A DNA stretch of 47,048 bases, taken from the IMG/VR virus record IMGVR_UViG_2563366978_000001; one strand, given 5' to 3'. Numbering within the stretch: position 1 is the stretch's first letter; each line of letters starts with the position of its first letter. Positions 1-20,732 of this stretch are shown in pieces. The notes below the pieces were generated by a model. That model saw nothing but the letters and a program-made list of their open reading frames with translations, searched no databases and was not told the DNA's origin. Made by a program: the position numbers and the translations under genes. The stretch is from a virus (Duplodnaviria; Heunggongvirae; Uroviricota; Caudoviricetes).

Positions 1-24
1 AGGAACAAATTTTAACGTTCCGAT

Positions 25-3540: not shown

Positions 3541-3694
3541 TATGCGCAGGTCTATACACACAAAAAAACACGCTGGCGCGTGTTGTGCGCTTCGTTTTGC
3601 CAGGATTGCGAAGTCCCGACTGCGGGATTTACCGCAGCGAGGTGACTTTACCTCCAAAACGACGCACACGTCAATAATTTGCAAAGACATTTTA

Positions 3695-5406: not shown

Positions 5407-5598
5407 TTACTCCCCGTTCACCGAAAATTCACGATAGAAACGTTTCCACATACGATAAGTCTGCGCAAATTGTTCACCACGAAACATCGCCTTCCTGGCC
5501 TTCATGTTTTCCTTGTGAGACTTTCGGTCTATGAACCAAAACCATTGATGGAACACACAAAGCAAGAGACACAAAGATAATATCCAATCATTACCCAT
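5407..5598 (-). CDS. Small hypothetical membrane protein, about 63 aa (MGNDWILSLCLLLCVF...)
   Basis: In-frame ATG at 5596-5598 just beyond the repA stop; the longer track ORF would overlap repA. Confidence 0.4.
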   Translation of the reverse strand: MGNDWILSLCLLLCVFHQWFWFIDRKSHKENMKARKAMFRGEQFAQTYRMWKRFYREFSVNGE

Positions 5599-8500: not shown

Positions 8501-9586
8501 TGGATAGACGCAGCGGACATCGTTGAATTTCGATAAGATTTCATAGCCAGTCCGCAGGCCGGTATTCCCTTTTCCTTCTGTGGCTGATTTCCGGTCATTA
8601 TCCAGTGCGCAGGTGATTTTTGCCGCCGGGTACATGTTTACCAGTTGTTCCACAACATGAACCATGTTATTAGCGGATACAGCGACAACCACAGCGTCAA
8701 AGCGTTTATCTTTTTTCGTGGCAAGCCAGATGGATGCACCAGTAGCAAAACCTTCTGTAACAGCGATGTTTTGCGCCCCTTTTAGCTCACCGATAACAAA
8801 GCAGGCACCGACGAAATCGCCGCTGGTTACGGCGCTGGTCTGGTATTTTCCACCTTGTTTGTCGATTCGCTGCCAACCCACAATACGACCATCGTAACGA
8901 CCGTCCAGGTGAGCCAGAGGGATAGCCATATACGTGGTTGGCCCCCTGCTCCATTTTGCGCTGTCGTGACTGGTCACGCGACGCACATCACACGAATTAA
9001 AAACGTCACGAATACCTTTTTTAATCGCATATGGCCATGAGCCGTCTTCTGCAGGAGCATGTTCCCACGCGCTGTGGAATGCCAGCCATCCCAGCAAACG
9101 TTCATGGTCCATTTGGTTGTTTTTCAGGTCATTAATTCGTTTTTGTTCTTCACGGCGACGACGTGCTTCGGCCTGACGTTCTATTCTTGCCCGTTCTTCT
9201 TCCGGTTGTGCGACCACGGTCGCATTATTCCGTTGTTGCTCACGGCGATATTCAGAAAACAGGAAGGAGAAACCGCTCCATGAGCCAGCATCGCTGCCTT
9301 TATGGACGAAGTTAATGAACGGGTAATCAATCCCTTTGCTGTGTTCCAGCCGGGAGTAAATTTCTACGCGTCCTTTGAGGCTCTTTTCGAGAGCTTCTGG
9401 AGATGTTTTATTGTATGAAGAGTAACGCTCAACACCCCCGCGAGGGTTGAGTTGGATGTTGTCGGAACAGGCAGACCAGTTGATACCAGCCATCTGTGCC
9501 AGCTCGGTTAGTTCATCCCGTGCTGCTTCAATTAGCGAGAACGGATCGCTGCCAAAGCGATCCGCATAGAAATCGTTTAATGTCAT
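5591..9586 (-). CDS. repA: Replication protein RepA (primase-helicase), 1331 aa
   Basis: Single ORF of N15 RepA size (about 1324 aa from memory) in the N15 position between immunity region and telN side. Confidence 0.9.
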   Translation of the reverse strand: MTLNDFYADRFGSDPFSLIEAARDELTELAQMAGINWSACSDNIQLNPRGGVERYSSYNKTSPEALEKSLKGRVEIYSRLEHSKGIDYPFINFVHKGSDAGSWSGFSFLFSEYRREQQRNNATVVAQPEEERARIERQAEARRRREEQKRINDLKNNQMDHERLLGWLAFHSAWEHAPAEDGSWPYAIKKGIRDVFNSCDVRRVTSHDSAKWSRGPTTYMAIPLAHLDGRYDGRIVGWQRIDKQGGKYQTSAVTSGDFVGACFVIGELKGAQNIAVTEGFATGASIWLATKKDKRFDAVVVAVSANNMVHVVEQLVNMYPAAKITCALDNDRKSATEGKGNTGLRTGYEILSKFNDVRCVYPTFEDDPQMECSDFNDLHKLRGLRETARQLFATANRLKTGTDLLSLTLNRLKTIKRDNRRTFAKELLRAVDIGMLTCPVPNSPSDLFNMFCIVLREMGLENIYRATVKDHIARRLNKKCRIAQAPRSFSERITDPNKRPQHITYKRLETSVMTDDVLKYVQSLQGIVIVRAGMGSGKSTGLLRPLMHSSERGISVAHRVSLIGGLWEMMTEGKGVKTDILHYQDPGYQEMAPYASKLTICINSIVKNCWQPLMRQHDYFGFDEATQGLRAVLSGRAMENPVAVFNTLIDALARTEQHPIMVDADANDLLVDLAELAMKRREELGLPAWLQIHVIELPVDVRNRETGEPIRVFYTEKDRIMTEVVKAVSDGEKIMLATDSSTFAEDVTATLRMHFPGKKFLCVNQKNKPEPEVEAFTNQPKKMVKKYDGLIYSPSISSGVSIEQKHFDRHFGMFCGEVVPSDAVQMLRRDRTAKEFIIGFDKARAKRETDPQKIERAFAQALLATAGMNGELTDVVFDGDRISMGVANTDFTRMKIKAAAIEATARNDYASNMICIMHSDGYKVSPLATDYAANDIGKDLRKEARDIVWEQTLDLHLNTETPQESEREELLKKRALTLEEQAKLVRWDIENELKLPVEEGTLKFYFDGARDKVRRYETMLLDEVTARRYDREEAAINFTYTYRQAGQWQYFVVTAMTREQADDVFKTKFPGIIDHKVKATPTVEVGARGFYALKSATLRQYFIDCGINPETMTGEATQERLKFARDNLMTAERRDLLNNVLHIGGFMTPKGKPKVPEALFKNICDSLGLKTGKRRGRDGDKRPTLRFVEPESAAFMLDILVQRQKDGLTLKTRKAEKTAIEMDRDLDLNIYMDDKTRSTNEQVQNAPHSVISEALAVLPVAVPESWAMSALSSEELATMSSWSSASIAMTFASLYLTEFMDHLSSNELRRLREYITGNSSCSYEEQGAFYG
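5873..5922. other. Candidate replication origin inside the 3' part of repA: 8-bp inverted repeat GGATCGCG/CGCGATCC around an AT-rich core with three GATC sites
   Basis: Direct reading; N15-type origins are reported within the 3' part of repA (from memory). Confidence 0.3.
9209..9224. repeat. sopC-like palindrome TGCGACCACGGTCGCA (inside repA); putative centromere site
   Basis: 16-bp core of the palindrome family repeated five times in the window. Confidence 0.55.
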
Positions 9587-9831
9587 TTTTTAGCCATTCC
9601 ATGCGAATTATGTTTTTTCGGGTTGAAAAAATCCGCAGGAGCAGCCACAATAAACGCATCTTGAATTGACGGAATCCGTCGCGTTACTGTGGCTGCTTCC
9701 TGAAAAGGACCCGAGTTTGCCGACTCGGGTTTTTTTTCGTCTTTTTTCTGCTGCTGTAACCTGAGTCAACCCACAGAACATATGCTCTGCATTAAACCAG
9801 ATTTACAGCAAACAATAAACCCCGTATTAAG

Positions 9832-10428
9832 TCATCTACCCTCAACCATGAATGATTTGATCGTTCCGACTATTTGGTGAACAAATTCAAGATCGCTTTT
9901 CCTGAAGATGGCGCGTTGTGAATTTGTTCCGTCCAGATAGTAATTTTCATCATCAAAACGGGCCAGGCGCTGGATGGTGATATTTCCTGCAGTATCACGA
10001 ACCAGAACATCCTCGCCGGGAACCAGTTCCAGCGCAGAATCGACCAGGAGAAAATCGCCTGGCTGATAGTTTCCCTGCGCCAGATTGCTGATAGTTAACG
10101 CATAAACAGTATTGCGCTGGCTGATGAATGGCAGGAATCGCTCAGTATTTGGAACCTGTCCTGGCTTCCACTCTTCATCAGGTCCACTTTCAGTTGTGCC
10201 AATAACAGGAATGCGATCAGGGTCATATTCTGTCCCATACAGCACCCAATGCACTGGCTTGCGTAAGCACTTAGCCAGGGCAATACCTATCTCCAGTGAC
10301 GGCATTACGTCGCCACGTTCTAAGTTTTGGACGCCTGCAATAGAGATATCGACAGCCTCAGCAACTTCTCGCAACGTCAGCTTCATCTCTAAACGGCGTG
10401 CTTTCAGTCGTTCGCCTCGTGTTTTCAT
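9832..10428 (-). CDS. cB: CI-like prophage repressor (N-terminal HTH, C-terminal domain), N15 CB-like
   Basis: HTH motif LTLREVAEAVDISIAGVQNLERG; divergent from a cro-like gene across palindromic operators. Confidence 0.85.
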   Translation of the reverse strand: MKTRGERLKARRLEMKLTLREVAEAVDISIAGVQNLERGDVMPSLEIGIALAKCLRKPVHWVLYGTEYDPDRIPVIGTTESGPDEEWKPGQVPNTERFLPFISQRNTVYALTISNLAQGNYQPGDFLLVDSALELVPGEDVLVRDTAGNITIQRLARFDDENYYLDGTNSQRAIFRKSDLEFVHQIVGTIKSFMVEGR

Positions 10429-10450
10429 AGCTTAATCATAAATGATCTTC

Positions 10451-10492
10451 TTATAGCTGGCTATAAAATTTATTTATTATAGCTGGCTTTAA
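10451..10492. promoter_or_regulatory. Two operator palindromes, TTATAGCTGGCTATAA (10451-10466) and TTATAGCTGGCTTTAA (10477-10492), between cB and cro
   Basis: 7-bp inverted arms with a 2-bp centre, repeated 26 bp apart in the divergent promoter region. Confidence 0.75.
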
Positions 10493-10741
10493 ATGAGATT
10501 TATTGCTTATAATAACCGCATGAAACCAGAAGAACTTATTCGCCACTTTGGCAGTGTAGAAAAAGCAGCGGCTGGGGTAGGTGTAACACCCGGTGCTGTT
10601 TACCAATGGTTAACCGCTGGAGAGATTCCTTCATTGCGGCAAAGTGATATTGAAGTTCGTACTGCTTACAAGCTGAAGAGTGACTTTACAACTCGGCGGG
10701 TAAAGCAGTCGATTAAGGAGAGCCGTAAGCGTGGAGCTTGA
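10493..10741 (+). CDS. cro: Cro-like small DNA-binding regulator (start may be the second ATG at 10520)
   Basis: Small basic ORF divergent from the repressor; HTH-like GVGVTPGAVYQWL. Confidence 0.75.
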   Translation: MRFIAYNNRMKPEELIRHFGSVEKAAAGVGVTPGAVYQWLTAGEIPSLRQSDIEVRTAYKLKSDFTTRRVKQSIKESRKRGA

Positions 10742-11441
10742 GTATATACGCAGCTGCGTCTCCACGGCATTGGCTGATATTCATTATCGCCAGCGTGGCA
10801 TCCTAGAGGTCCAGCTTGAGCAGATGCGTCTAGGCAGATCAGGACGCTTTAACAATAAACCAGTCCGGTCAATCAGTGTAGGTGATGATAACTCATACGA
10901 AGTGTCCGTTCCTGCTGAGCCGGTTAGATTCCACCAGGGGAAAACATTTAAACAATCATCAATGTTGCTCACTGATATTGATTTTCAGAGCGCCAGCTGG
11001 CGCAGGGCTATTGGTCAGTTGAATAACGAGGAATCAGCTTGGCTTTATTATTGCTACGGATGCAAGCCTGATTACAACAATGATGTGATTGTTTGTCAGT
11101 GGTTATGGCTTGATTTTCTGGTTGCTCATTCGGGGGGCGGCTTTAAAAAAATGAAGGCCTCCACGAAAAAAGCCATGCGGAAATTGATTTATTACGCGGC
11201 ACAGCAGGTTAAATCAGAACTTACGTGTGCTGAGGCAGTTGATGAGAGAGAACAGGACAGGCATCTGAGTTTTCTACTGAATATATCTATTGATAGCTGG
11301 AGACAAGATTATAAAGAACGCTGGCTTTTAATTAAGTCGCGATGTCTGAGCTTAAATCGAACTGCATTATTAAATGCGGCGGAGAAGCGCAGTGAAATCA
11401 TCAAACGCCATCGGGCAGGAAGTGCCATTCTGCCTTTGTAA
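10731..11441 (+). CDS. Hypothetical protein, 236 aa, in the position of the N15 Q-like late regulator
   Basis: ORF directly downstream of cro; function inferred from position only. Confidence 0.5.
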   Translation: MELEYIRSCVSTALADIHYRQRGILEVQLEQMRLGRSGRFNNKPVRSISVGDDNSYEVSVPAEPVRFHQGKTFKQSSMLLTDIDFQSASWRRAIGQLNNEESAWLYYCYGCKPDYNNDVIVCQWLWLDFLVAHSGGGFKKMKASTKKAMRKLIYYAAQQVKSELTCAEAVDEREQDRHLSFLLNISIDSWRQDYKERWLLIKSRCLSLNRTALLNAAEKRSEIIKRHRAGSAILPL

Positions 11442-11445
11442 ACAA

Positions 11446-11694
11446 GTTATGTTCAGGAAACCGTCGAAGCCAGAATTAAGGTATTCGGGGGTAAGAAATG
11501 AATATGTTATCTGGTGTCCAACTTGTGGTTACAGGACACGACCAGATAGTAATAAGCAGTCTGTAATTGCCGATTGGTATTTATCAAATCAGCCAGGTAA
11601 TAAGCATATAGAAAATCTTTGGATTAAGCGTTACTTGGAAATCAGAGAGGGTGCGACCGTGGTCGCACAAGAAAATGAAAATAACGCCATTTAA
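11446..11694 (+). CDS. Small Cys-containing protein (CPTCGY motif), about 82 aa
   Basis: In-frame ATG after the upstream stop; contains one centromere-like palindrome at its 3' end. Confidence 0.45.
   Translation, partial: VMFRKPSKPELRYSGVRNEYVIWCPTCGYRTRPDSNKQSVIADWYLSNQPGNKHIENLWIKRYLEIREGATVVAQENENNAI
11651..11668. repeat. sopC-like palindrome GTGCGACCGTGGTCGCAC; putative centromere site
   Basis: 18-bp palindrome, 8-bp arms with 2-bp centre. Confidence 0.65.
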
Positions 11695-11878
11695 GCAGGG
11701 GCCGATGACGCATGATGAAGCAGAGCGTCTTTCAGATACTTATCGGCGGCGTGGTAAGAAAGTTCTGGTTGTTCGTTCTGATTTTTTAGGTGATGGATAT
11801 TGCGTTTATGTTCATTTACCTGAATCAGAAAGAACGCCAAAACCATCCAGAACATATCAACAGAAAATTTGGGTATAG
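11675..11878 (+). CDS. Small hypothetical protein (start uncertain)
   Basis: ORF track entry 11651-11878; internal Met chosen to reduce overlap. Confidence 0.35.
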   Translation: MKITPFKQGPMTHDEAERLSDTYRRRGKKVLVVRSDFLGDGYCVYVHLPESERTPKPSRTYQQKIWV

Positions 11879-11901
11879 ATAAACGTTGAGGAGAATTATT
11901 C

Positions 11902-12501
11902 GTGACTAATCAGATTATTTACGACAGGAAACGGTCTGATGTAATGATTGACCTTGAAACAATGGGTACTAACACATGTGCTCCAATTGTTTCTATCGGG
12001 GCAGTGTTTTTTTCTCCAGAAAGTGAGGAATTAGGTCCTACTTTTTATGTACCAGTGAATCTCAGAAGCTCGATGTTGAATGGTGGTGTCGCCGATGGTG
12101 ATACCATTTTATGGTGGTTGAAACAGAGCAAGGAAGCCAGAGCCGCAATTTGTACTAATGATGCCCTTGATATTAAGGATGCACTTTTTGAATTATCACA
12201 CTTTATTACTTGCCATGCATGTAATTTAAAAAAATTGAAAGTATGGGGAAATGGAGCAACGTTCGATAATGTAATTTTACGCGGTGCTTATGAGCGCGTT
12301 GGCTTAGCCTGTCCGTGGGAATATTTTAATGATCAGGATGTTCGAACAATCGTTAACCTTGGTCAGTTTATTGGTTTTAATCCTAAAAAAGATATGCCAT
12401 TTGATGGCGAACGACACAATGCCCTGGCTGATGCTATTCATCAGGCTAAATATGTATCAGCAATTTTCTCCCGTCTTGTAAAAGGGCAAGGAGAATCGTA
12501 A
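11902..12501 (+). CDS. DEDDh-type 3'-5' exonuclease, 199 aa
   Basis: Motifs MIDLETMG and HNALADA typical of the DnaQ-like exonuclease fold; RBS GAGGAGAA. Confidence 0.7.
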   Translation: MTNQIIYDRKRSDVMIDLETMGTNTCAPIVSIGAVFFSPESEELGPTFYVPVNLRSSMLNGGVADGDTILWWLKQSKEARAAICTNDALDIKDALFELSHFITCHACNLKKLKVWGNGATFDNVILRGAYERVGLACPWEYFNDQDVRTIVNLGQFIGFNPKKDMPFDGERHNALADAIHQAKYVSAIFSRLVKGQGES

Positions 12502-12920
12502 TGGCAAAGGCTTTTACACCAGAACAGAGGGAAGAACTGAATAAACAAATTGTGGAACTCGTGCGCCTGAATGGACGAGGAACGGTTAGACAACTTGCGG
12601 ATGAAACTGGTATTAGCCGGTGTGCTGTTAGTCGTTTATCAAGAGAGCTTGCTGCCAGTGGTGATTTGTATATCTCTGGCTCCGGGATATTTCTGTCTGC
12701 ACAAGCACGCAAGGACTGGCAAAACGCCCGTAAAAAACTATCAAGAGTAAAGCCGAAGACATCGGTAGTGGTTGATCCAGACCTTATCTGGTCATTACCT
12801 GACGGAGAAATACGTCGTTACGACAGGCGCTTGAACATGATTTGTCACGATTGCCGGAAAAGTGAAGTTATGCAGCGTGTGCTGGCTTTTTATCAGGGAA
12901 ATTTTCAGGAGGTGGCGTAG
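12501..12920 (+). CDS. Putative HTH DNA-binding protein, 139 aa
   Basis: HTH-like GTVRQLADETGISRCAVSRLSREL. Confidence 0.55.
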   Translation: MAKAFTPEQREELNKQIVELVRLNGRGTVRQLADETGISRCAVSRLSRELAASGDLYISGSGIFLSAQARKDWQNARKKLSRVKPKTSVVVDPDLIWSLPDGEIRRYDRRLNMICHDCRKSEVMQRVLAFYQGNFQEVA

Positions 12921-13210
12921 TGAATATCGACACCACGATAACGATCGATACGGCCATAAATATCGGTCTGGCACTTCTCGGTTGGTTTTACATCATGTTC
13001 AGTGCGGGGAAGTGGGCGGCCTCTGTTTTTCTAAAGCAGTGGGGAAAGCACCGCAAACAGGAAAGACGCCAGAAAGTGTTAGAGGCGTTCTATGACGCAT
13101 TTGAACTTAGCCGCATTGAGCCAGGCACAACAGCCAAGATAGCGACAAAAGGCGACCTGATGATAGTGATGTTCCGACAGGAGAGAGCAGAGAAAGGGGA
13201 ATCAGCATGA
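12920..13210 (+). CDS. Small membrane protein, 96 aa
   Basis: Hydrophobic N-terminal segment; overlapping start/stop with neighbours. Confidence 0.5.
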   Translation: MNIDTTITIDTAINIGLALLGWFYIMFSAGKWAASVFLKQWGKHRKQERRQKVLEAFYDAFELSRIEPGTTAKIATKGDLMIVMFRQERAEKGESA

Positions 13211-13920
13211 AATTTTCCAAATTTTCTGAGTTGGTGAATCGTATTTTGTCCAACAACCACAGCCATCGTCGCGATATGGATGTAACAATCGTTATTCATT
13301 CGCCTGGCAGCATTGGTTCAACACCTTCAGTTGAGGTTCAGTCAATTCACGCTGGTTTTGATTGGGATTCCGGGAAAGTGCTTATTTTCCCATCACAGCC
13401 ACTGACCACGCTAACACCAGAACAGATTACTGATATCACTGATAGTGTGCGCAAAGGTCAGTCCTGGCACGCATATCAGGAATACAAGAAGCATAAAGAG
13501 CAGTTGGAAAAATTATCGATTGAACTTGATGCCGCAAAACAGCGCATTGCAGAGCTGGAGGGTAATTTCACGGTGCTGGCAGTGGAGAATGCCTCAATGA
13601 AGCTGTTTATCAGGGGTTGTTGCTACGTGTTTGATGGCCAGCAGGATGAAATATCTGATGCGTATATCTGCGCAACAGACGGAGGGATGCCGCAAATTCC
13701 AGCCACCGATGCTTTCCTGTCTGAAGTGCGGGCGCAGGGGGTGGATGCTGCTATAGAAGCTGCAAAAAATCTGGTGGCCCAAGAATATGAGTATAAGGAT
13801 TTCAAAGCGGCGCAGAGTGATTGCTGTATGCACCCTGGTTCAGACTTGGTAGGGAAGGTTGAAATGACTGAGTGGTTAGTTGACTTTGCTGCCCAGCTTC
13901 GCAAAGGAGGCAACCAGTGA
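13207..13920 (+). CDS. Hypothetical protein, 237 aa
   Basis: ORF coupled to neighbours. Confidence 0.5.
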   Translation: MKFSKFSELVNRILSNNHSHRRDMDVTIVIHSPGSIGSTPSVEVQSIHAGFDWDSGKVLIFPSQPLTTLTPEQITDITDSVRKGQSWHAYQEYKKHKEQLEKLSIELDAAKQRIAELEGNFTVLAVENASMKLFIRGCCYVFDGQQDEISDAYICATDGGMPQIPATDAFLSEVRAQGVDAAIEAAKNLVAQEYEYKDFKAAQSDCCMHPGSDLVGKVEMTEWLVDFAAQLRKGGNQ

Positions 13921-14378
13921 GCGAAATTAATTACCAGGCACTGCGTGAGGCGGCGGAACGTGCAATTCCAGCAATGGAACGCCTGTTAATGTTGCCAGCT
14001 GATGATGATTTGTTAAGTGAACAGGAACTTAAAGATTACGGTGTGGATATTGATGCGCTCAACGCCTTCAAATTTCTGGCCGGACCAGAAACCGTGCTGG
14101 CACTACTGGATGAAAGGGAAAGAAACCAGCAATACATCAAACGCCGTGACCAGGAGAACGAGGATATTGCGCTAACGGTAGGGAAGCTGCGCGTTGAGCT
14201 GGAATCCGCAGAGAAGCGCATAGCAGAACTGGAAGCGCGGGAAATACTGCTCCCGGAACGTAGCAGTATGCTTCATCGAACAGATTTTAACGAGGATTAC
14301 CAAACGGTAATGGCATACAAAGTTTCTGAAGTCATCGCTGCAATCCGCGTCGCTGGCATTCGCATCAAAGGAGAGTGA
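13917..14378 (+). CDS. Ead/Ea22-like early-region protein, 153 aa
   Basis: N-terminus MSEINYQALREAAE resembles the Ead/Ea22 family of enterobacterial prophages (from memory). Confidence 0.55.
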   Translation: MSEINYQALREAAERAIPAMERLLMLPADDDLLSEQELKDYGVDIDALNAFKFLAGPETVLALLDERERNQQYIKRRDQENEDIALTVGKLRVELESAEKRIAELEAREILLPERSSMLHRTDFNEDYQTVMAYKVSEVIAAIRVAGIRIKGE

Positions 14379-14379
14379 T

Positions 14380-14925
14380 ATGACCACTTTCACCGACAAA
14401 GAACTGATTAAAGAAATCAAAGAACGTATCAGCAGCCTGGACGTACGAGACGATATTGAGCGCCGTGCTTATGAAATTGCTCTGGCATCGCTGGAAGAGG
14501 ATCCGGTGGCATGGCTGCATTCAGACAATGGCTTAGGTATTCCGGCAATAACGAGGAGTAAACACATTGCTGACAGTTGGTTATCAAAGGGCTGGTATGT
14601 TCAGCCGCTATATATAGCCAAGCCAGTACCGGTGGTGCCAGATGTTCGTCCGTCTTTAAATAATGGCATAGTCGGTTTTGATGAAGGCTGGAACGCCTGC
14701 CGCGCCGCCATGCTTCAGAGTCAAGGTAATTGCATTAAGGATGGTTGGATAAGCTGTAGTGAGCAAATGCCAGATGATGGTCGTATTCAGTTTTCTGTTT
14801 CACTTCCAGCAGCATGTGGTGGAGATAAATATTTTATTGATGGTGTATTTCAACCTTTGAGATATGAGCGTGACTGTGAAAAAGCGGTTGTGGCCGCTGG
14901 CGGTGTAGTTAATTGGGTTAAGTAA
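14380..14925 (+). CDS. Hypothetical early-region protein, 181 aa (DUF551-like C-terminus)
   Basis: C-terminal WISCSEQMPD... pattern common in lambdoid early regions. Confidence 0.5.
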   Translation: MTTFTDKELIKEIKERISSLDVRDDIERRAYEIALASLEEDPVAWLHSDNGLGIPAITRSKHIADSWLSKGWYVQPLYIAKPVPVVPDVRPSLNNGIVGFDEGWNACRAAMLQSQGNCIKDGWISCSEQMPDDGRIQFSVSLPAACGGDKYFIDGVFQPLRYERDCEKAVVAAGGVVNWVK

Positions 14926-14940
14926 TTTTTAGGAGGATTT

Positions 14941-15267
14941 ATGGCGCTGACACCGGCAGAACGGCAAAGAAGACGCAGGGAACGGTTGAAGAAGGAAGGA
15001 ACATCAAGACGTGACTGGATTCTGGAACCTGACGAGTTACGTATGTTGGGGGAAATTTGTGTATTGCGTAGACCAGGGCGAGTTCCATATTCAGAGAACG
15101 AAGTCATCGGACTGCTGATCAGGAAAAACTATAAGGAGTTGCAGAAACAGCTATCTACTACTTGTCCGCGATGTGGTCAAAAAATGCCTGTTTCAGAATG
15201 CATTTTTGATGGTGAAGGCTCATGCCACCTTACAACCACGAGGCTGAAACTTGCGCTCAAAGTGTGA
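14941..15267 (+). CDS. Hypothetical protein, 108 aa, with a possible Cys4 zinc ribbon
   Basis: CPRCGQ...C..C pattern; RBS AGGAGG. Confidence 0.5.
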   Translation: MALTPAERQRRRRERLKKEGTSRRDWILEPDELRMLGEICVLRRPGRVPYSENEVIGLLIRKNYKELQKQLSTTCPRCGQKMPVSECIFDGEGSCHLTTTRLKLALKV

Positions 15268-15285
15268 CTGGTCACGGAGGGATAA

Positions 15286-15441
15286 ATGGACAAAAAGGCA
15301 TTGCTTTTTGAAATGATACGAAAACGGAGCGAAAAGAGCTTTTCTGATGGTGGTGATGGGCTTTTGAAAGTGGTTGGGCGAGGCGTAGGAAGGGAACATA
15401 AGTATCAGACTACAAAGATATTTAACCAGTTAATCCATTGA
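15286..15441 (+). CDS. Small ORF, 51 aa (MDKKALLFEMIRKR...)
   Basis: Hand-translated; strong RBS GGAGGG 5 nt upstream of the ATG. Confidence 0.35.
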   Translation: MDKKALLFEMIRKRSEKSFSDGGDGLLKVVGRGVGREHKYQTTKIFNQLIH

Positions 15442-15469
15442 AAGTTGGCTATAAAATTTGAGTTTTACC

Positions 15470-15485
15470 CTGTAATTTTATACAG
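15470..15485. promoter_or_regulatory. LexA (SOS) box CTGTAATTTTATACAG
   Basis: Perfect CTGT-N8-ACAG with AT-rich spacer, about 25 bp upstream of the 15510 ORF. Confidence 0.65.
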
Positions 15486-15509
15486 TATCAAATAACCTTT
15501 TTTAATTAA

Positions 15510-15728
15510 ATGGTATTAGATTCAATGACTGAAGCACCTGTATCAACTCTTGAAGAACTCGGATCAAACCTAAAAGACATCGACGCCGTTTTGGATCTGG
15601 TTAGCGTTGCTCTGGCTTCTCCAGAAGCCAGCTTGCATCTTGGCGAGATTTCACGACTTGTTAGTATGTCGCGGGAGATTGCTCAGAATTGCCAACAAGT
15701 TATTGCTGTTGAGTGTTTGCATCATTGA
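15510..15728 (+). CDS. Small acidic protein, 72 aa; candidate SOS-controlled antirepressor (AntC-like role)
   Basis: ORF immediately downstream of the LexA box; role inferred. Confidence 0.45.
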   Translation: MVLDSMTEAPVSTLEELGSNLKDIDAVLDLVSVALASPEASLHLGEISRLVSMSREIAQNCQQVIAVECLHH

Positions 15729-15771
15729 TACACACCCCGCCCTTCTGGACGGGGTAGCGAAAAGGGTCTAA

Positions 15772-16059
15772 TCAATAGACGGCATTAATATTAATCGTTG
15801 CACCGCATGCTTGGGCATATTTTGATAAAGTTTTCATGCTTGCCCCTAAAGGATTGCTTTCCAGGCGGCTGATAGCTGACGGGCGCAATCCCATTCGTTC
15901 AGCCAGAGCTGACTTCGTTAAACCTGCTCTTTCCCTCATTTCGTATAACATTTCGACCATCTCCAGCTCTTTATCGGCCTCTTCATATCCTTTGATGGCT
16001 TCTGGAGTGTTGAGAAGTTTTTCTTTTACTTCGTTAAACGGGATGCCTTTCGCTTTCAT
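15772..16059 (-). CDS. HTH (XRE-family) antitoxin, HigA-like, 95 aa
   Basis: C-terminal HTH; overlaps the upstream toxin gene at 16059. Confidence 0.7.
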   Translation of the reverse strand: MKAKGIPFNEVKEKLLNTPEAIKGYEEADKELEMVEMLYEMRERAGLTKSALAERMGLRPSAISRLESNPLGASMKTLSKYAQACGATININAVY

Positions 16060-16370
16060 CAGTTCATCTCCTTCAGGCGAGTTCTGGCGATTTCGATAGC
16101 CTTCACCGGTGTTTTCTGTGTCTTTTTTACAAATGCATGCAATAGATAAATTTCGTTACCAGTCGCGTAGGCGTACAGCGTTCTTGCGATGTTTTTATCC
16201 CCTACTCGTAGTTCAAAAAGCCCTCCACCTATTACACGGCTATGGGGCATCTTCAGTTTGTTGCCTTCCTTCTCCAGTCGCTCAATTAATCTGGTCATGC
16301 GACCTCGCAAATCATCTGGTAGTTCAAGCAGTTCATCCAGTGCTGCAGGGTGGGTTATCACGTTAAACAT
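16059..16370 (-). CDS. RelE/ParE-superfamily toxin, HigB-like, 103 aa
   Basis: Small basic protein upstream of the HTH antitoxin in toxin-first (HigBA) order. Confidence 0.65.
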   Translation of the reverse strand: MFNVITHPAALDELLELPDDLRGRMTRLIERLEKEGNKLKMPHSRVIGGGLFELRVGDKNIARTLYAYATGNEIYLLHAFVKKTQKTPVKAIEIARTRLKEMN

Positions 16371-16428
16371 ATTATAGCCTCCATAGCCATAAAATACACC
16401 AAAACAAGAAAAAAGCGCAAATTAAAAA

Positions 16429-16446
16429 TTTCACTAAAAAGTGAAA
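16429..16446. promoter_or_regulatory. Palindrome TTTCAC-TAAAAA-GTGAAA in the toxin-antitoxin promoter region; putative antitoxin operator
   Basis: Inverted repeat about 60 bp upstream of the toxin start codon. Confidence 0.45.
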
Positions 16447-16517
16447 AATAACACTGGATGTGTTCGTTTGGCAGAGTTACAGTTCGTGTCATTGAGGGGC
16501 AATAACCCACTAACTAT

Positions 16518-16757
16518 ATGAATTTGGAGGATATTATGAATTATCAAGGTAACGAAAAAATGCGCGACGACGTTGCGGAGATAGCTAACGAACTGTATGA
16601 GTTGTGGCAGAAGGTTGAACGTTTCGAAAAGGAATATGGTTTCAACAGTACCAACCTGGCAGACCGACTGGCTGGTCGCTTAGTTGGGACTATGGGGCCA
16701 AAACTGGCTGAGTTGAACCGCTTTATGGCTGATGTTGATTTCCAGTTTCAAGATTGA
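16518..16757 (+). CDS. Hypothetical protein, 79 aa
   Basis: ORF with RBS GGAGGA. Confidence 0.5.
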   Translation: MNLEDIMNYQGNEKMRDDVAEIANELYELWQKVERFEKEYGFNSTNLADRLAGRLVGTMGPKLAELNRFMADVDFQFQD

Positions 16758-16770
16758 TTAGAGAGGCGTT

Positions 16771-16998
16771 ATGAATATTAATGAAATTCGTGGAAATATG
16801 ACTGAAGCGGCCCTGAGTGTGGAATGTGTTATGCGTGGATACCCACGCATTTCCCTGAAAGAGTTAAGCGAAGCCTGTTTTTTGAGTCAAGCTGCCGTTG
16901 AATTTATCATCGAACAGATGATCTGTTTTGGGGTTGCAAAGCGTAGCGGGTCTGGTCGATATTCTTTGACCGATGAATATAAGCAGGCAACTTTCTAA
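16771..16998 (+). CDS. Hypothetical protein, 75 aa
   Basis: ORF with RBS GAGAGG. Confidence 0.5.
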   Translation: MNINEIRGNMTEAALSVECVMRGYPRISLKELSEACFLSQAAVEFIIEQMICFGVAKRSGSGRYSLTDEYKQATF

Positions 16999-17001
16999 AA
17001 A

Positions 17002-17023
17002 CTGTGCGACCACGGTCGCACAG
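17002..17023. repeat. sopC-like palindrome CTGTGCGACCACGGTCGCACAG; putative centromere site
   Basis: 22-bp palindrome just upstream of the candidate late promoter region. Confidence 0.65.
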
Positions 17024-17107
17024 CACAAAAACGAAAAAGCTTGGCAAAATTACGGTTTTTAGTTATTGTTTTGTTAAGTTGGGTTTTTTGTACCCAACAG
17101 CCAACAA

Positions 17108-17131
17108 GCCGCCTTTATGGCGGTTTTTTTG
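17108..17131 (+). terminator. Intrinsic terminator (GCCGCC-TTTAT-GGCGG then T7); candidate tR'-like terminator of a short leader transcript
   Basis: Stem-loop plus 7-T tract about 60 nt downstream of a putative promoter (TTGGCA-17-TATTGT). Confidence 0.45.
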
Positions 17132-17265
17132 TGCCTGAAAAGTGGGCGCAGGACAAGTTGCAGCTTGTCCTGCGGTCAACCCATGCCAGAGCTATAGGCT
17201 GAACCTAAAGCCCACCCGCGATGCGCATCGCCGGGTTAGCTTACCCAGGCAAAAAAATAATAGCT

Positions 17266-18342
17266 ATGTTCAAAACCACTAATATTCATGGCGCGCAACT
17301 CGTTTGCGCAGATTCTCTGCAATTTATCAAAACCATCCCTGATAACTCGGTCAATTTGATTGCAACAGACCCACCATACTTCGGCGTAAAGGCTAACGCA
17401 TGGGATAACCAGTGGGATAGCGATGCTGACTTTTTGGGGTGGATTGATGAATTTTTGGCAGAATTTTGGCGGATATTGGCCCCTAATGGCAGCCTGTATA
17501 TGTTTACCGGCTCTCGCCTTGCGTCAAAAATTGAATTATTAACTCGCGACCGTTTCAATGTTCTGAACCATATCATTTGGGCTAAACCCAGTGGTATGTG
17601 GCGCGGTTGTCATAAAGAAAGTTTAAGGGCTTATTTTCCTGCCACTGAAAGAATATTATTTGCAGAGCATTACGGCGCGTCAGGTTATGCTAAAGGTCAG
17701 TCAGGTTATGCTTCAAAATGTGCAGATTTAAGAAAAAATATTTTTTCTCCACTAATTGATGCTTTTTCGCTGGCTCGCCGTCAGTTAGATATATCAGCCG
17801 CAGACATTAATTCAGCAACAGGAAAGCAGATGTGTTCGCACTGGTTTTCTTATTCGCAGTGGCGGCTTCCATCATTAAGTGATTTTAATAAACTATGCGA
17901 ATTATTTCGCAGGAAGGCAGATTCACTCGGTGTCCCGTGTCCATATCCTTTTAATGTTGATTATTCAGAACATGAAAAGCGTTATAGCGATCTGAAATTG
18001 CGTTATGAGGAAGTAAAGAAGCAGTATGATGATTTGAAGGCTCAGTATGAAAATTTGCGCCGCCCATTTCATGTTACTGCTGATGTACCTTATACCGATG
18101 TATGGGAGTTTCCTCCTGTGCAATATTATCCTGGCAAGCACCCATGTGAAAAACCTGCAGCGATGATGGAACATATTATAAAAAGTAGTTCCCGCCCCGG
18201 AGATATCGTTGCCGATTTCTTTATGGGATCAGGCTCTACTATTAAAGCCGCGCTGAAGTTAGGTCGTCAGGCAATCGGTATTGAGATTGAGGGTGAACGT
18301 TATCTTCAGACAGTTGATGAAGTGAAAAAGTTATTTGAGTAA
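17266..18342 (+). CDS. DNA methyltransferase (DPPY motif; N6-adenine or N4-cytosine class), about 358 aa, no adjacent restriction enzyme
   Basis: Motif IV ATDPPYFG before motif I FFMGSGST; start taken at the internal ATG 17266, the track ORF starts at 17221. Confidence 0.75.
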   Translation: MFKTTNIHGAQLVCADSLQFIKTIPDNSVNLIATDPPYFGVKANAWDNQWDSDADFLGWIDEFLAEFWRILAPNGSLYMFTGSRLASKIELLTRDRFNVLNHIIWAKPSGMWRGCHKESLRAYFPATERILFAEHYGASGYAKGQSGYASKCADLRKNIFSPLIDAFSLARRQLDISAADINSATGKQMCSHWFSYSQWRLPSLSDFNKLCELFRRKADSLGVPCPYPFNVDYSEHEKRYSDLKLRYEEVKKQYDDLKAQYENLRRPFHVTADVPYTDVWEFPPVQYYPGKHPCEKPAAMMEHIIKSSSRPGDIVADFFMGSGSTIKAALKLGRQAIGIEIEGERYLQTVDEVKKLFE

Positions 18343-18437
18343 CTGAAGAATATATTCCCCTGCCGTTTTTGATGGGGTTATTTCTCGCCGTATAGTTTCC
18401 AAGCCGAAACCTCAGCAACTATTGCGAGGTAAGAGAT

Positions 18438-18710
18438 ATGAAGATGGATGAACGATACAGCAGCGCATCTTATGGTAGTGCTGGTCTTACTGCGTTCTTT
18501 GCCAGCCTGTCATTGCAGGATTGGGGCTTCATTATCGGTGTCGCGTTCAGCATTATCCTCGGTGTACTTACATACCGGCTCAATAAACGCGAGCAGATGA
18601 AGCGCACGAAGATATTGCAGGACATATTGGATAAAACTGATGCCAATAATATTTCCGCCACGGCGATGGTTATTGGTGAATTGGGAAAGAGAGCACCGAA
18701 GGAAATATGA
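18438..18710 (+). CDS. S: Holin (pinholin, S21-like) with dual-start MKM motif
   Basis: Small two-TM protein resembling phage 21 S (from memory); precedes a SAR endolysin. Confidence 0.75.
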
Positions 18711-19207
18711 TGCAGTCATCATTACGCAAAGCTGTCGCAACTGCTATTGGTGGCGGGGCTATTGCCATAGCATCTGTGCTCATCTCTGGTCCGAGCGGCA
18801 ACGATGGTCTGGAAGGTGTGAGACATAACCCCTACAAAGACATCGTTGGTGTATGGACTGTATGTTACGGGCATACAGGAAAAGACATTATGCTCGGTAA
18901 AACGTATACCGAAGCAGAATGCAAAGCTCTCCTGAATAAAGACCTTGCTACTGTCGCCAGACAAATTAACCCGTACATCAAAGTCGATATACCGGAAACA
19001 ACGCGTGGTGCTCTTTACTCGTTCGTTTACAACGTGGGTGCAGGCAATTTCAGAACATCGACACTTCTTCGCAAAATCAACCAGGGCGATATCAAAGGTG
19101 CATGTGATCAACTACGTCGCTGGACATATGCTGGCGGCAAGCAATGGAAAGGGCTGATGACTCGCCGTGAGATTGAGCGTGAAGTCTGTTTGTGGGGGCA
19201 GCAATGA
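18707..19207 (+). CDS. R: SAR endolysin (lysozyme, R21-like)
   Basis: N-terminal Gly/Ala-rich signal-anchor ([19 protein letters not shown]) and near-identity to my memory of phage 21 R. Confidence 0.85.
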
Positions 19208-19671
19208 GCAGAGTAACCGCAATTATCTCCGCACTGGTTATCTGCATCATCGTCTGCCTGTCGTGGGCTGTTAATCATTACCGTGATAACGCCATCGCCT
19301 ACAAAGAACAGCGTGATAAAAAAGTCAGTGAGCTGAAGCAGGCGACCGCCACCATCGCTGACATGCAGCAGCGTCAGCGTGATGTTGCTGCGCTCGATGC
19401 AAAATACACGAAGGAGTTGGCTGATGCGAAAGCTGAAAATGATGCTCTTCGGCGCAAGCTTGATAATGGTGGTCGGGTGCTCGTCAAAGGAAAATGCTCT
19501 GTGCCATCCTCAGCCGAAACCTCCAGCGCCTCCGGCATGGGCAATGATGCCACCGTCGAACTCTCTCCAGTTGCTGGACGAAACGTTCTCGGTATCCGGG
19601 ACGGAATCATCAGAGACCAGACAGCACTGAGAACGCTTCAGGAATACATCAAGACGCAATGCCCGAATTAA
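19204..19671 (+). CDS. Rz: Rz i-spanin
   Basis: N-terminal TM, coiled-coil, position after the endolysin; contains an embedded Rz1 frame. Confidence 0.75.
19424..19630 (+). CDS. Rz1: Rz1 o-spanin lipoprotein embedded in the +1 frame of Rz
   Basis: RBS AAGGAG then ATG; signal peptide with lipobox VVGC; Pro-rich mature part. Confidence 0.7.
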
Positions 19672-19712
19672 TCCCTCTGTATCAAAAACGAACTCAATTT
19701 GTTGGATAGTGA

Positions 19713-20024
19713 ATGAAAATTTATATTGCCGGGCCAATGACTGGATATGAGAACTTTAATCGTGACGCCTTTAATAAAGAGGCAGATCGTTTGTCACGAC
19801 ATGGTCACTCTGTCTTGAATCCAGCCACTTTGCCTAATGGTCTGACACAACGTGAATACATGGATATTTGCTTTGCAATGCTTCGTTGTGCTGATGCTAT
19901 TTTGATGCTTCCTGGCTGGAAAGCGTCTGCTGGAGCAACTGCTGAGTATCATTACGCATACAAGATGGAGATGCCGGTATTCACTACGCTGAATTACCCG
20001 CCAGCTTGTTCCTCTGTAGCATAA
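19713..20024 (+). CDS. Nucleoside 2-deoxyribosyltransferase-like (DUF4406-type) protein, 103 aa
   Basis: MKIYIAGPMTG N-terminus typical of this fold. Confidence 0.55.
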   Translation: MKIYIAGPMTGYENFNRDAFNKEADRLSRHGHSVLNPATLPNGLTQREYMDICFAMLRCADAILMLPGWKASAGATAEYHYAYKMEMPVFTTLNYPPACSSVA

Positions 20025-20042
20025 AAATCTCTTTGTTTCTCG

Positions 20043-20062
20043 TGTGCGACCGTGGTCGCACA
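20043..20062. repeat. sopC-like palindrome TGTGCGACCGTGGTCGCACA; putative centromere site
   Basis: 20-bp palindrome. Confidence 0.65.
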
Positions 20063-20262
20063 TTAAATACCGCGCTGCATCGTCGCCGTATTTCCGCATT
20101 AACCATGACCGTAGCCCGACGGGGAACTCCTCTGCGCGAGTGTGCGGAAATAATCAAAAACGATGCACACCGGGTTTTTACCGCGCTAATGATTCGCGGG
20201 TTTGTCCCTCATGCTCGCCAGTCCTGTGCGAGGGTGGAAGAAACAGGGCATGTATTCAGGAG

Positions 20263-20282
20263 CGTGCGACCGTGGTCGCACG
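20263..20282. repeat. sopC-like palindrome CGTGCGACCGTGGTCGCACG; putative centromere site
   Basis: 20-bp palindrome. Confidence 0.65.
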
Positions 20283-20304
20283 GTATCTTTGTCAGGAGGT
20301 TTTG

Positions 20305-20619: not shown

Positions 20620-20720
20620 CAGCAAATCAGCTTTCAGGGCGCGTTGACTTTCAGGTGTTGCGGCATGCAGATGATAATTATTATCATTGCGGGTCCTTTC
20701 CAGTGATCCGACAGGTTACG

Positions 20721-20732
20721 GGGCGGAAGGCG
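20721..20732. other. cos: cosN cohesive-end site, predicted 12-nt overhang GGGCGGAAGGCG, flanked by lambda-like cosQ/cosB
   Basis: Flanking sequence matches my memory of lambda cos; the 12-mer differs from lambda GGGCGGCGACCT at 5 positions. Confidence 0.7.

What the first reader, a model, noticed from the sequence alone, without database searches (positions are those of the whole stretch)
9209..20282. Five dispersed copies of a sopC-like palindrome (putative centromeres)
GTGCGACC-(GT/AC)-GGTCGCAC occurs at 9209, 11651, 17004, 20044 and 20264, far more often than chance for a 16-18 bp palindrome. It resembles the F sopC core TGGGACCACGGTCCCA, and N15 is known to use dispersed rather than clustered centromeres. 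One copy abuts the candidate late promoter and two bracket a structured region just upstream of cos, so SopB binding might also silence late genes.
Basis: partly seen in the sequence, partly recalled or inferred. Interest (0 to 1): 0.75.

Follow-up and report, generated by a model that had tools for sequence, protein, structure and literature searches.

The report
N15-type dispersed plasmid centromere sites
The five palindromes have the same sequence as the known docking sites of the partition protein SopB in the linear plasmid-phage N15, so this relative of N15 very probably uses them as its scattered "centromere"; this is an ordinary, already described arrangement with one extra site.

Summary
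GTGCGACC-NN-GGTCGCAC occurs exactly at 11651, 17004, 20044 and 20264. A fifth copy at 9208-9225 has one mismatch in its last base; its 16-bp core at 9209-9224 is exact. Shuffles expect about 0, and no site has 2-4 mismatches.

The window is an N15-like linear plasmid prophage (telN, repA, cB/cro/Q, cos, lambda-like virion genes, sopBA, telR half-site). It is about 98% identical to Escherichia phages PhiR46_1 and YDC107_1. The palindrome is not just sopC-like: it has the core of N15 centromere sites IR1-IR4. phiKO2 annotates the same 18-mers as putative partitioning sites.

Sites 1-3 share flanks and positions with IR1-3: inside repA, about 200 bp after Q, and 19 bp upstream of the late-promoter -35. 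SopB is 74% identical to N15 SopB and keeps its recognition helix (DRN...R; F and PY54 have SRK and use TGGGACC sites).

Sites 4 and 5 bracket a 202-bp lambda-type segment. That module also occurs in integrated lambdoid prophages without sop genes.

The silencing idea is untested; the title of the N15 study says Sop facilitates late expression. Verdict: new member of a known kind, low interest.

The parts
9208..9225 (.). Site 1 (N15 IR1 equivalent), GTGCGACCACGGTCGCAT. The 16-bp core 9209-9224 is exact. It lies inside repA, where it encodes ...A-T-V-V-A...
   Evidence: flanks are homologous to N15 IR1 (33479) and phiKO2 37905
11651..11668 (.). Site 2 (N15 IR2 equivalent), 210 bp downstream of Q, in the 3' end of a Lar-like ORF (11374-11694)
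   Evidence: flanks conserved in N15, phiKO2, MStein-2023a, 48ST307 and Kpn_R1
17004..17021 (.). Site 3 (N15 IR3 equivalent), ending 19 bp upstream of the -35 hexamer of the late promoter
   Evidence: N15 and phiKO2 annotate -35/-10 signals at the same place
17041..17069 (+). Late promoter candidate (TTGGCA-17-TATTGT), equivalent to the N15 promoter annotated at 41162-41190 upstream of gene 52
17106..17126 (+). Terminator-like hairpin plus T run downstream of the late promoter. This gives a lambda pR'-tR'-like arrangement, presumably read through by Q.
   Evidence: N15 annotates a stem-loop at 41229-41250 and phiKO2 a putative terminator at 45489-45510
20044..20061 (.). Site 4, 20 bp downstream of the DUF4406 gene (19713-20024). 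This is the position of IR4 in phiKO2 and PY54.
20062..20263 (+). A 202-bp segment homologous (85-94%) to a conserved segment upstream of cos in lambdoid phages. It contains a hairpin of about 90 nt.
20264..20281 (.). Site 5 (the extra copy), 23 bp upstream of the ATG of ORF 20305-20619. The same palindrome follows the lambda-type segment in some non-N15 lambdoid phages.
44437..45426 (-). sopB (329 aa), the centromere-binding ParB. It has the SopB_HTH domain, is 74% identical to N15 SopB, and is 100% identical to PhiR46_1 ParB.
45423..46592 (-). sopA (389 aa), the partition ATPase (ParA family), 93% identical to N15 SopA
10731..11441 (+). Q-like antiterminator gene, 5.6 kb upstream of the late promoter
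   Evidence: YDC107_1 homologue annotated as antitermination Q family
5591..9586 (-). repA (1331 aa), which contains site 1
20721..20732 (+). cosN cohesive-end sequence (GGGCGGAAGGCG), 440 bp downstream of site 5
   Evidence: Read directly by comparison with the lambda cos sequence, which I recalled from my own knowledge. The cos-type flanks also appear in the lambdoid contigs.

Best explanation
The five palindromes are the centromere (SopB-binding) sites of a type Ia SopABC partition system. They belong to an N15-like linear plasmid prophage.

Proposed mechanism:
- A SopB dimer recognises each 16-bp core TGCGACC-NN-GGTCGCA through its helix-turn-helix (helix D-R-N-I-I-S-R) plus the conserved arginine of the ELSAR motif.
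- The bound sites nucleate partition complexes.
- SopA ATPase positions those complexes on the nucleoid, so each daughter cell inherits the low-copy linear plasmid.

Sites 1-3 are the direct counterparts of N15 IR1-IR3. Sites 4 and 5 occupy the IR4 position (after the DUF4406 gene, before cos). They appear as two copies because a lambda-type 202-bp segment lies between them.

Site 3 lies at a fixed 19-20 bp from the late-promoter -35. Together with site 2 next to Q, it probably also helps Q-dependent late transcription, as reported for N15.

Shown here: sequence identity, synteny, the cognate genes, and covariation between helix and site. Inferred: binding, partition activity and the effect on late transcription.
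For: 1. The motif has the same core as N15 IR1-IR4. N15 carries GTGCGACC-NN-GGTCGCAC at 35930, 41124 and 45561, and a one-mismatch copy in repA at 33479. PMC7205306 Table 4 lists these as IR1-IR4, the N15 centromere sites on which N15 SopB forms foci.
2. The phiKO2 RefSeq record annotates the same 18-mers as 'putative plasmid partitioning site' at the same four genomic positions.
3. The flanks of window sites 1-3 are homologous to those of IR1-3.
4. sopB and sopA are present, at 74% and 93% identity to N15, and SopB has the SopB_HTH domain. The 22-residue stretch shown by domain swaps to hold all specificity determinants (PMC2910045) is 17/22 identical to N15. It keeps the equivalents of R190, R195 and R219.
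5. Helix and site covary. Phages with TGCGACC sites (window, N15, phiKO2) have D-R-N. F and PY54 SpyB have S-R-K, and PY54 carries 11 dispersed TGGGACC sites.
6. The sites are far above chance, and nothing has 2-4 mismatches.
7. The 16-bp core is kept in all N15-like genomes and contigs examined, which carry 4-8 sites per genome. In lambdoid phages without N15-type genes the homologous palindrome is often decayed: 11 of 16 contigs in an anchor-based sample.
8. The gap from IR3 to the -35 is 19-20 bp in seven phages.
Against: No binding or stability experiment can be run here. The key N15 papers (Ravin & Lane 1999; Grigoriev & Lobocka 2001; Ravin et al. 2008) are not held, so their content is known only through citing papers and my own recollection.

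Sites 4 and 5 lie in a module (DUF4406 gene, palindrome, 202 bp, palindrome, ORF) that also occurs at 97-99.8% identity in integrated lambdoid prophages without sop genes nearby. Their presence therefore does not by itself prove selection as centromeres.

Site 5 passes a lenient terminator scan.

Phage 2B8 carries a doubly substituted, still palindromic version (GTGCAACC..GGTTGCAC). That hints the hairpin or palindrome itself can be under selection outside the Sop context.
Confidence: 0.9

Rival explanations
1. Only sites 1-3 are selected centromeres. Sites 4 and 5 are passengers of a lambda-type late-region cassette that is exchanged between N15-like plasmids and integrative lambdoid prophages. 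They may have a different, SopB-independent role there (an RNA or DNA hairpin flanking the structured segment) or none.
For: The same cassette with both palindromes occurs in chromosomal prophages that have an integrase, N, cI and Q but no sop genes in the 25-41 kb inspected. Single copies of the exact palindrome lie about 100 bp upstream of cosN in IMG/VR lambdoid contigs that share nothing with the N15-specific part of the window. Phage 2B8 has a compensated variant, and another contig has the one-sided intermediate. The flanks of sites 4 and 5 are not homologous to N15 IR4.
Against: The sequence is identical to the other SopB boxes, so SopB should bind it whatever its origin. A site directly after the DUF4406 gene is ancestral in the family (phiKO2 48618; PY54 44409). 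In every N15-like contig examined both cores are intact. In integrated prophages site 4 is degraded in 2 of 6, and the cos-proximal palindrome is decayed in 11 of 16 lambdoid contigs. That pattern fits selection only where SopB is present.
Confidence: 0.2
2. SopB spreading from the sites silences the late promoter and the genes near cos in the prophage state.
For: ParB/SopB-mediated silencing is used as an assay in PMC7205306. [quoted passage not shown] Site 3 is 19 bp from the -35, and five sites span the lytic genes from repA to cos.
Against: The one dedicated N15 study is titled as showing that Sop facilitates late gene expression (reference in PMC11652158). The site lies upstream of the promoter rather than over it, at a conserved distance, with its centre about 64 bp before the inferred transcription start. 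That is an activator-like or architectural position. From my own knowledge, silencing in F and P1 is mainly seen with excess ParB.
Confidence: 0.12
3. The palindromes act as RNA hairpins (intrinsic terminators or attenuators) rather than protein-binding sites.
For: Each forms a 7-10 bp G+C-rich hairpin of -11 to -17 kcal/mol. Site 5 is listed by the terminator scan. The N15 record annotates IR4 as a putative rho-independent terminator.
Against: Four of the five lack a U tract on the + strand. Sites 1 and 2 lie inside coding sequence. An identical 16-bp sequence at five places is not needed for hairpins. The number of terminator-like hits in the region is not above the shuffles (11 against 11.3).
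Confidence: 0.04
4. The sites are operators for another phage regulator (Q, CB repressor, RepA or TelN).
For: Two sites flank late-regulatory elements: one after Q and one before the late promoter.
Against: The CB operators annotated in N15 are different sequences, next to cB. The same palindrome also occurs inside repA and before cos. Its sequence covaries with the SopB recognition helix across N15, phiKO2, F and PY54.
Confidence: 0.02

Closest known systems
N15 centromere sites IR1-IR4 with N15 SopAB (Ravin & Lane 1999; Grigoriev & Lobocka 2001; used as '4xIR' in PMC7205306)
   Same: Same 16-18 bp palindrome, with a variable central dinucleotide. The same dispersed layout inside lytic-development genes: in repA, after Q, before the late promoter, and before cos. 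The same partner proteins (SopB 74%, SopA 93% identical) and the same linear plasmid-prophage lifestyle.
   Different: There are five sites instead of four. The IR4-position site is doubled around a lambda-derived 202-bp insert, and its flanks are unrelated to N15 IR4. The host element is only about 75% identical to N15 in the repA-Q region and unrelated in many early genes.
phiKO2 'putative plasmid partitioning sites' (RefSeq NC_005857 annotation; Casjens et al. 2004)
   Same: Identical 18-mers at the four equivalent positions, including one directly after the DUF4406/gp58 gene and one 19 bp before the putative late promoter.
   Different: Four sites. The virion genes of phiKO2 are not lambda-like, and it has no lambda-type segment.
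F plasmid sopC
   Same: Same protein family, and the same palindrome apart from one base per half-site (TGGGACC in F, TGCGACC here). The arginines contacting the conserved guanines (R190, R195, R219) are retained (PMC2910045; PMC3597684).
   Different: sopC is a single cluster of tandem copies next to sopB (10 copies according to PMC7205306; the full repeat is 43 bp according to PMC2910045). Here the sites are single, 0.2-5.4 kb apart, and 24-35 kb from sopB. The recognition helix has N where F has K191.
PY54 SpyAB with dispersed F-type sites
   Same: A linear plasmid prophage with dispersed palindromes, including ones in the Lar-like ORF after Q, before the late methylase gene, and after the DUF4406 gene.
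   Different: PY54 uses TGGGACC sites (11 copies) and an S-R-K helix. SpyB is only 52-53% identical.
Klebsiella N15-like 'telomere phages' (48ST307, Kpn_R1; the same group includes NAR688, PMC12042878)
   Same: Same palindrome and the same positions.
   Different: Seven to eight sites. There are tandem pairs 47 bp apart at the late promoter and about 155 bp apart at the IR4 position, plus extra site(s) in the head-gene region, downstream of the capsid gene in 48ST307. Site number is therefore variable in the family, and the fifth site here is one instance of that.

Membership tests
N15-type dispersed Sop centromere (IR sites) of linear plasmid prophages | Palindrome with the core TGCGACC-NN-GGTCGCA | tested here: met
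   Five cores are exact and match N15 IR1-4 (PMC7205306 Table 4).
N15-type dispersed Sop centromere (IR sites) of linear plasmid prophages | Cognate sopA-sopB operon on the same replicon, with SopB carrying the N15-type specificity region | tested here: met
   SopB is 74% and SopA 93% identical to N15. SopB has the SopB_HTH domain. The helix is D-R-N-I-I-S-R against N15 D-R-N-I-V-N-R, and ELSAR is conserved. The specificity region is defined in PMC2910045.
N15-type dispersed Sop centromere (IR sites) of linear plasmid prophages | Sites are dispersed among phage development genes at the IR1-IR4 positions, not clustered by sopB | tested here: met
   Sites 1-3 have flanks homologous to IR1-3. Sites 4 and 5 are at the IR4 position (after DUF4406, before cos), but their flanks are not homologous to N15 IR4.
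N15-type dispersed Sop centromere (IR sites) of linear plasmid prophages | The host element is a protelomerase-dependent linear plasmid prophage | tested here: met
   The 633-aa ORF at 149-2050 corresponds to the ORF annotated as protelomerase in YDC107_1. The right end of the window is a telR half-site. PhiR46_1 is 98% identical and annotates telL and telR.
N15-type dispersed Sop centromere (IR sites) of linear plasmid prophages | Sites bind SopB, stabilise a plasmid in a sopAB-dependent way, and exert incompatibility | not testable with these tools
   This needs EMSA or ChIP plus stability assays. It is established only for N15 itself (cited in PMC7205306 and PMC2910045).
N15-type dispersed Sop centromere (IR sites) of linear plasmid prophages | Site sequence tracks the specificity of the ParB recognition helix across relatives | tested here: met
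   D-R-N goes with TGCGACC (window, N15, phiKO2). S-R-K goes with TGGGACC (F, PY54).
F-type sopC centromere | Tandem array of 43-bp repeats adjacent to sopB | tested here: not met
   There are five single sites, 220-5353 bp apart and at least 24 kb from sopB. No further copies exist at up to 4 mismatches.
F-type sopC centromere | Core TGGGACCNNGGTCCCA | tested here: not met
   All five sites differ at two positions, one per arm.
Intrinsic (rho-independent) terminators | G+C-rich hairpin followed by a U tract, placed at the ends of transcription units | tested here: not met
   Only site 5 passes the lenient scan. The tails of the other sites are U-poor on the + strand, and two sites are intragenic.
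ParB-mediated silencing of adjacent promoters | Reduced promoter activity that depends on SopB and on the nearby site | not testable with these tools
   Only the geometry could be examined: the site ends 19-20 bp upstream of the -35 in seven phages.

The most novel reading that the evidence does not exclude
The SopB-box palindrome next to cos is not only a plasmid centromere but part of a small cassette that moves between N15-like plasmid prophages and integrative lambdoid prophages. In the integrative phages it could have a SopB-independent function as a hairpin upstream of cos. Alternatively, as a chromosomal copy of a plasmid centromere, it could act as a decoy or incompatibility determinant that destabilises incoming N15-like plasmid prophages, which would be a form of phage-phage competition.
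Probability: 0.08. Interest if true: 0.55.

Novelty: new member of a known kind. Interest (0 to 1): 0.2.

Why it matters
It confirms that this E. coli element, which belongs to a common but unstudied N15-like lineage, carries the full N15-type partition apparatus. The shared late-region module is found on 14 plasmids among 5,426 complete E. coli genomes. The result also allows the centromere sites to be annotated precisely.

The comparison adds three small points to the N15 picture:
- Site number varies from 4 to 8 within the family.
- The site before the late promoter keeps a fixed 19-20 bp distance from the -35 in seven phages from three host genera. This fits the reported role of Sop in late transcription.
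- The cos-proximal sites travel with a lambda-type cassette into integrated prophages, where they tend to decay.

None of this changes current understanding of ParABS systems.

Tried and rejected
- Papers. I tried to read Ravin & Lane 1999 (PMC94163), Ravin et al. 2008 (PMC2394991 and by DOI) and Casjens et al. 2004 (under the id PMC355964, recalled from memory). None is held. Statements about them therefore rest on citing papers and, where marked, on my own recollection.
- Rfam. A whole-window search at gathering threshold found nothing at or between the sites. It returned only C4 antisense RNA and isrK near 3.5 kb.
- Fold of 20040-20290. The z-score is -2.77, but the minimum-energy structure pairs the two identical palindromes with each other, which any pair of palindromes would allow. 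This is not evidence for a bracketing structure. The internal hairpin of about 90 nt is better supported.
- Terminator reading. Rejected as a general explanation.
- Duplication of IR4 with its downstream gene gp59. The ORF after site 5 has no similarity to N15 or phiKO2 gp59. It is a truncated copy of a 286-aa ORF of PhiR46_1.
- Degenerate extra sites or half-sites. None exist.
- F-type sites in the window. None are closer than 2 mismatches, and those hits are the same five sites.
- I did not use the large protein-database searches, structure prediction or covariance models, because the identification did not need them.


Full report
**Observation**

The pattern GTGCGACCNNGGTCGCAC has four exact matches in the window, at 11651, 17004, 20044 and 20264. 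In 100 dinucleotide-preserving shuffles the expectation is 0.00. Allowing three mismatches adds one site, 9208-9225 (GTGCGACCACGGTCGCAT), giving five against 0.14 expected.

Over the whole window, 4 positions have 0 mismatches, 1 has 1, none has 2-4, and 7 have 5. The half-site GTGCGACC occurs only inside the five sites.

**What the window is**

The ORF map and megablast show an N15-like linear plasmid prophage in prophage orientation:

- protelomerase gene, 149-2050
- repA, 5591-9586 (-)
- cB repressor, cro and Q, 9832-11441
- early genes
- a methylase gene behind a late promoter
- lysis genes, then cos near 20.7 kb
- lambda-like head and tail genes
- sopB, 44437-45426 (-), and sopA, 45423-46592 (-)
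- a right end that is exactly a telR half-site

Escherichia phages YDC107_1 and PhiR46_1 are about 98% identical over the finding's region. N15 itself is only about 75% identical, and only over repA-Q.

**Identity of the palindrome**

N15 carries GTGCGACC-NN-GGTCGCAC at 35930, 41124 and 45561, and a one-mismatch copy inside repA at 33479. PMC7205306 (Table 4 and text) lists these sequences as IR1-IR4, the natural N15 centromere sites. The paper states that N15 SopB forms foci on an array of them, whereas F SopB works only with its own sopC.

PMC2910045 states that the N15 and F sites differ by one nucleotide per half-site. It also reports that swapping residues 177-198 of F SopB with 179-200 of N15 SopB switches specificity.

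The phiKO2 RefSeq record annotates the same 18-mers as 'putative plasmid partitioning site' at four positions. So the motif is not merely sopC-like; it is the N15-type SopB box.

**Synteny**

- Site 1 lies in repA in the same codons as IR1 (A-T-V-V-A), with conserved flanks.
- Site 2 lies 210 bp after Q, in the 3' end of a Lar-like ORF, as IR2 does.
- Site 3 lies just after the gp51 homologue, as IR3 does.

In IR2, IR3 and IR4 alignments across N15, MStein-2023a, phiKO2, 48ST307 and Kpn_R1, the palindrome stays conserved while the flanks vary more. Only the central dinucleotide and the outermost base pair vary.

Site 3 ends 19 bp before TTGGCA-17-TATTGT (17041-17069), which is followed by a terminator-like hairpin at 17106-17126. 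N15 and phiKO2 annotate -35/-10 signals and a stem-loop or terminator at the same places. The gap between the palindrome and the -35 is 19-20 bp in all seven phages checked.

**The binding protein**

The window's SopB is 74% identical to N15 SopB, and SopA is 93% identical. SopB has the SopB_HTH Pfam domain and aligns with the solved F SopB DNA-binding domain.

In F, base contacts come from R190, K191, R195 and R219 (PMC3597684; PMC2910045). The recognition helices compare as follows:

| Protein | Recognition helix |
|---|---|
| Window SopB | D-R-N-I-I-S-R |
| N15 SopB | D-R-N-I-V-N-R |
| phiKO2 SopB | D-R-N-I-I-T-R |
| F SopB | S-R-K-I-I-T-R |
| PY54 SpyB | S-R-K-I-I-M-R |

The ELSAR arginine (F R219) is invariant. 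PY54 carries 11 dispersed TGGGACC-NN-GGTCCCA sites, 8 of them perfect and all of the F type.

**The fifth site**

N15, phiKO2 and MStein-2023a have four sites. The window, PhiR46_1 and YDC107_1 have five, 48ST307 has seven and Kpn_R1 eight. The Klebsiella phages have tandem pairs at the late promoter and at the IR4 position.

In the window, sites 4 and 5 lie between the DUF4406 gene (19713-20024) and a small ORF (20305-20619). A site directly after the DUF4406 gene is also found in phiKO2 and PY54.

The 202 bp between them is 85-94% identical to a segment found upstream of cos in 424 lambdoid phage records. In phage 434 that segment lies between bor and a DUF3950 gene. The homology starts 11 bp after site 4 and ends just before site 5.

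The ORF after site 5 is unrelated to N15 or phiKO2 gp59. It is a truncated form of a 286-aa ORF of PhiR46_1.

**The cassette outside plasmids**

Twenty-five of 5,426 complete E. coli genomes hold the DUF4406-site-segment-site-ORF module. It is on 14 plasmids of about 36-75 kb and on 11 chromosomes.

The chromosomal copies I inspected over 25-41 kb are in ordinary integrated lambdoid prophages, with no sop genes in the stretches seen:
- one at sbcB, with an integrase, N, a LexA-family (cI-like) repressor, cro, cII, nin genes and Q;
- others of a dicB/ydfABC type, with a different terminase.

Site 5 is intact in 6 of 6. Site 4 keeps its core in 4 of 6 and is degraded to GTGCGATCGTGGTCGCTC in 2 of 6.

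An exact-pattern scan of IMG/VR returned at least 120 stretches. Besides N15-like contigs with IR2/IR3/IR4-type flanks, many contigs have a single palindrome that follows the lambda-type segment. It lies about 100 bp upstream of cosN, in loci that share nothing with the N15-specific part of the window.

To reduce ascertainment bias, I sampled lambdoid contigs by an anchor inside the segment. Of 16 contigs with the palindrome-bearing continuation:
- 5 are exact;
- 2 have a single substitution;
- 1 has the compensated GTGCAACC..GGTTGCAC, also seen in phage 2B8;
- 8 share the decayed GTGTGACTGTGGTCGCAA and are identical to each other, so may be one lineage.

In contrast, every N15-like contig examined keeps both cores intact; only the outermost base of site 4 varies. 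The simplest reading is mosaic exchange of the late region between N15-like and lambdoid phages, with the palindrome maintained where SopB is present and drifting where it is not. The samples are small and partly clonal, so this is suggestive only.

**The 'structured region'**

Folding 20040-20290 gives z = -2.77, but largely because the two identical palindromes can pair with each other.

Inside the segment there is a hairpin of about 90 nt (about 20075-20165). In 39 distinct lambdoid versions it shows one clear two-sided change (U-A in 2 sequences, C-G in 32), a C-G/U-G/U-A series, and several C-to-U changes giving G.U on the + strand. Divergence is low, so support is modest.

Nothing in Rfam matches it. 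It is a lambdoid element, not a feature of the partition system.

**Mechanism and rivals**

The best-supported mechanism is the standard Sop/ParABS one. SopB dimers bind the five cores and nucleate partition complexes, and SopA positions them. The steps after sequence recognition are inferred from F and N15.

The terminator reading fails as a general explanation. The hairpins are stable (-11 to -17 kcal/mol), but four of five lack a U tract on the + strand and two are intragenic. Terminator-like hits are no more frequent than in shuffles.

The silencing idea cannot be tested here. [quoted passage not shown] As I recall that paper, mutating IR2 or IR3 delayed lysis and lowered expression from the late promoter; this is my own recollection, not a verified source. 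The conserved upstream position of site 3 fits an activating or architectural role better than occlusion.

**Novelty and score**

Dispersed SopB boxes in N15-type prophages have been known since 1999-2001 and are annotated in phiKO2. This window is an uncharacterised member of that group with one additional site.

The cassette shared with integrative prophages and the fixed promoter spacing are minor additions. Interest is low (0.2). The most novel reading not excluded is a SopB-independent or anti-plasmid decoy role for the cos-proximal palindrome in integrative phages, to which I give a probability of about 0.08.

Noticed in passing
window 3449-3536 (-) and 3563-3638 (-): Rfam gathering-level hits to C4 antisense RNA (RF01695, 82 bits) and isrK (RF01394, 53 bits), upstream of the antirepressor-like genes. 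This is presumably the N15-type anti-immunity RNA locus.
   Followed up: no
window 20062-20263 (hairpin about 20075-20165): A lambda-type segment conserved in 424 phage records. Most of the 3,182 E. coli genomes that match window 19700-20720 probably match through this segment. It contains a hairpin of about 90 nt on the + strand, with one two-sided compensatory pair and several G.U-compatible changes among 39 distinct versions. It is not in Rfam. In phage 434 it lies between bor and a DUF3950 gene.
   Followed up: partly
L009 (phage 2B8, LR595859), L016, L017, L027, L028, L046 and others; L137 and L229: Lambdoid phages with no N15-specific DNA carry the exact N15-type palindrome about 100 bp upstream of cosN. 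Phage 2B8 and L229 carry GTGCAACC..GGTTGCAC, with both arms changed and the palindrome kept. L137 carries the one-sided intermediate. Eight contigs carry a decayed version.
   Followed up: partly
L011 (E. coli MS1657 chromosome), L012, L242-L245: Integrated lambdoid prophages of at least two different backbones carry the DUF4406-palindrome-segment-palindrome-ORF cassette at 97-99.8% identity to the plasmid version. Site 4 is degraded in two of the six.
   Followed up: partly
window 20305-20619 and 20620-20720: The 104-aa ORF is a truncated copy of a 286-aa ORF of PhiR46_1 (102 of 104 residues identical). Relative to PhiR46_1, the window lacks about 1.4 kb before cos, including a 150-aa ORF and a second copy of the lambda-type segment.
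   Followed up: partly
L002 (CP025712, YDC107_1): The record contains the telN-repA region twice in inverted orientation, with frameshifted copies, around the telomere position. It looks like an assembly read-through of a hairpin end rather than the true structure. This explains why site 1 appears twice there.
   Followed up: no
L005 (PY54): PY54 has 11 dispersed F-type sites (TGGGACC-NN-GGTCCCA, 8 of them perfect), including ones next to the terminase gene and inside repA and spyB. This is far more than the four of N15.
   Followed up: partly
L007 (48ST307) 15132/15179, 18426/18580, 27547; L008 (Kpn_R1): Klebsiella N15-like phages have tandem site pairs 47 bp apart at the late promoter and about 155 bp apart at the IR4 position. 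They also have extra site(s) in the head-gene region, downstream of the capsid gene in 48ST307. The capsid-type site also occurs singly in many other prophage contigs.
   Followed up: partly
window 9208-9225 and 11651-11668: Sites 1 and 2 are both read in the same frame through the palindrome, so RepA and the Lar-like ORF both contain the peptide A-T-V-V-A-Q. In every relative, a conserved ATG also lies 6 nt after site 2.
   Followed up: no
L001 33479 compared with PMC7205306 Table 4: The N15 RefSeq sequence has GAGCGACC... at IR1, whereas the published IR1 oligonucleotide has GTGCGACC.... This is either a sequence discrepancy or a deliberate idealisation.
   Followed up: no
window 1-60 and 46990-47048: The right end stops exactly at the centre of the telomere palindrome (...CCCATTATACG). 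The left end starts about 44 bp inside telL relative to PhiR46_1, so the left telomere half-site is missing from the window.
   Followed up: partly
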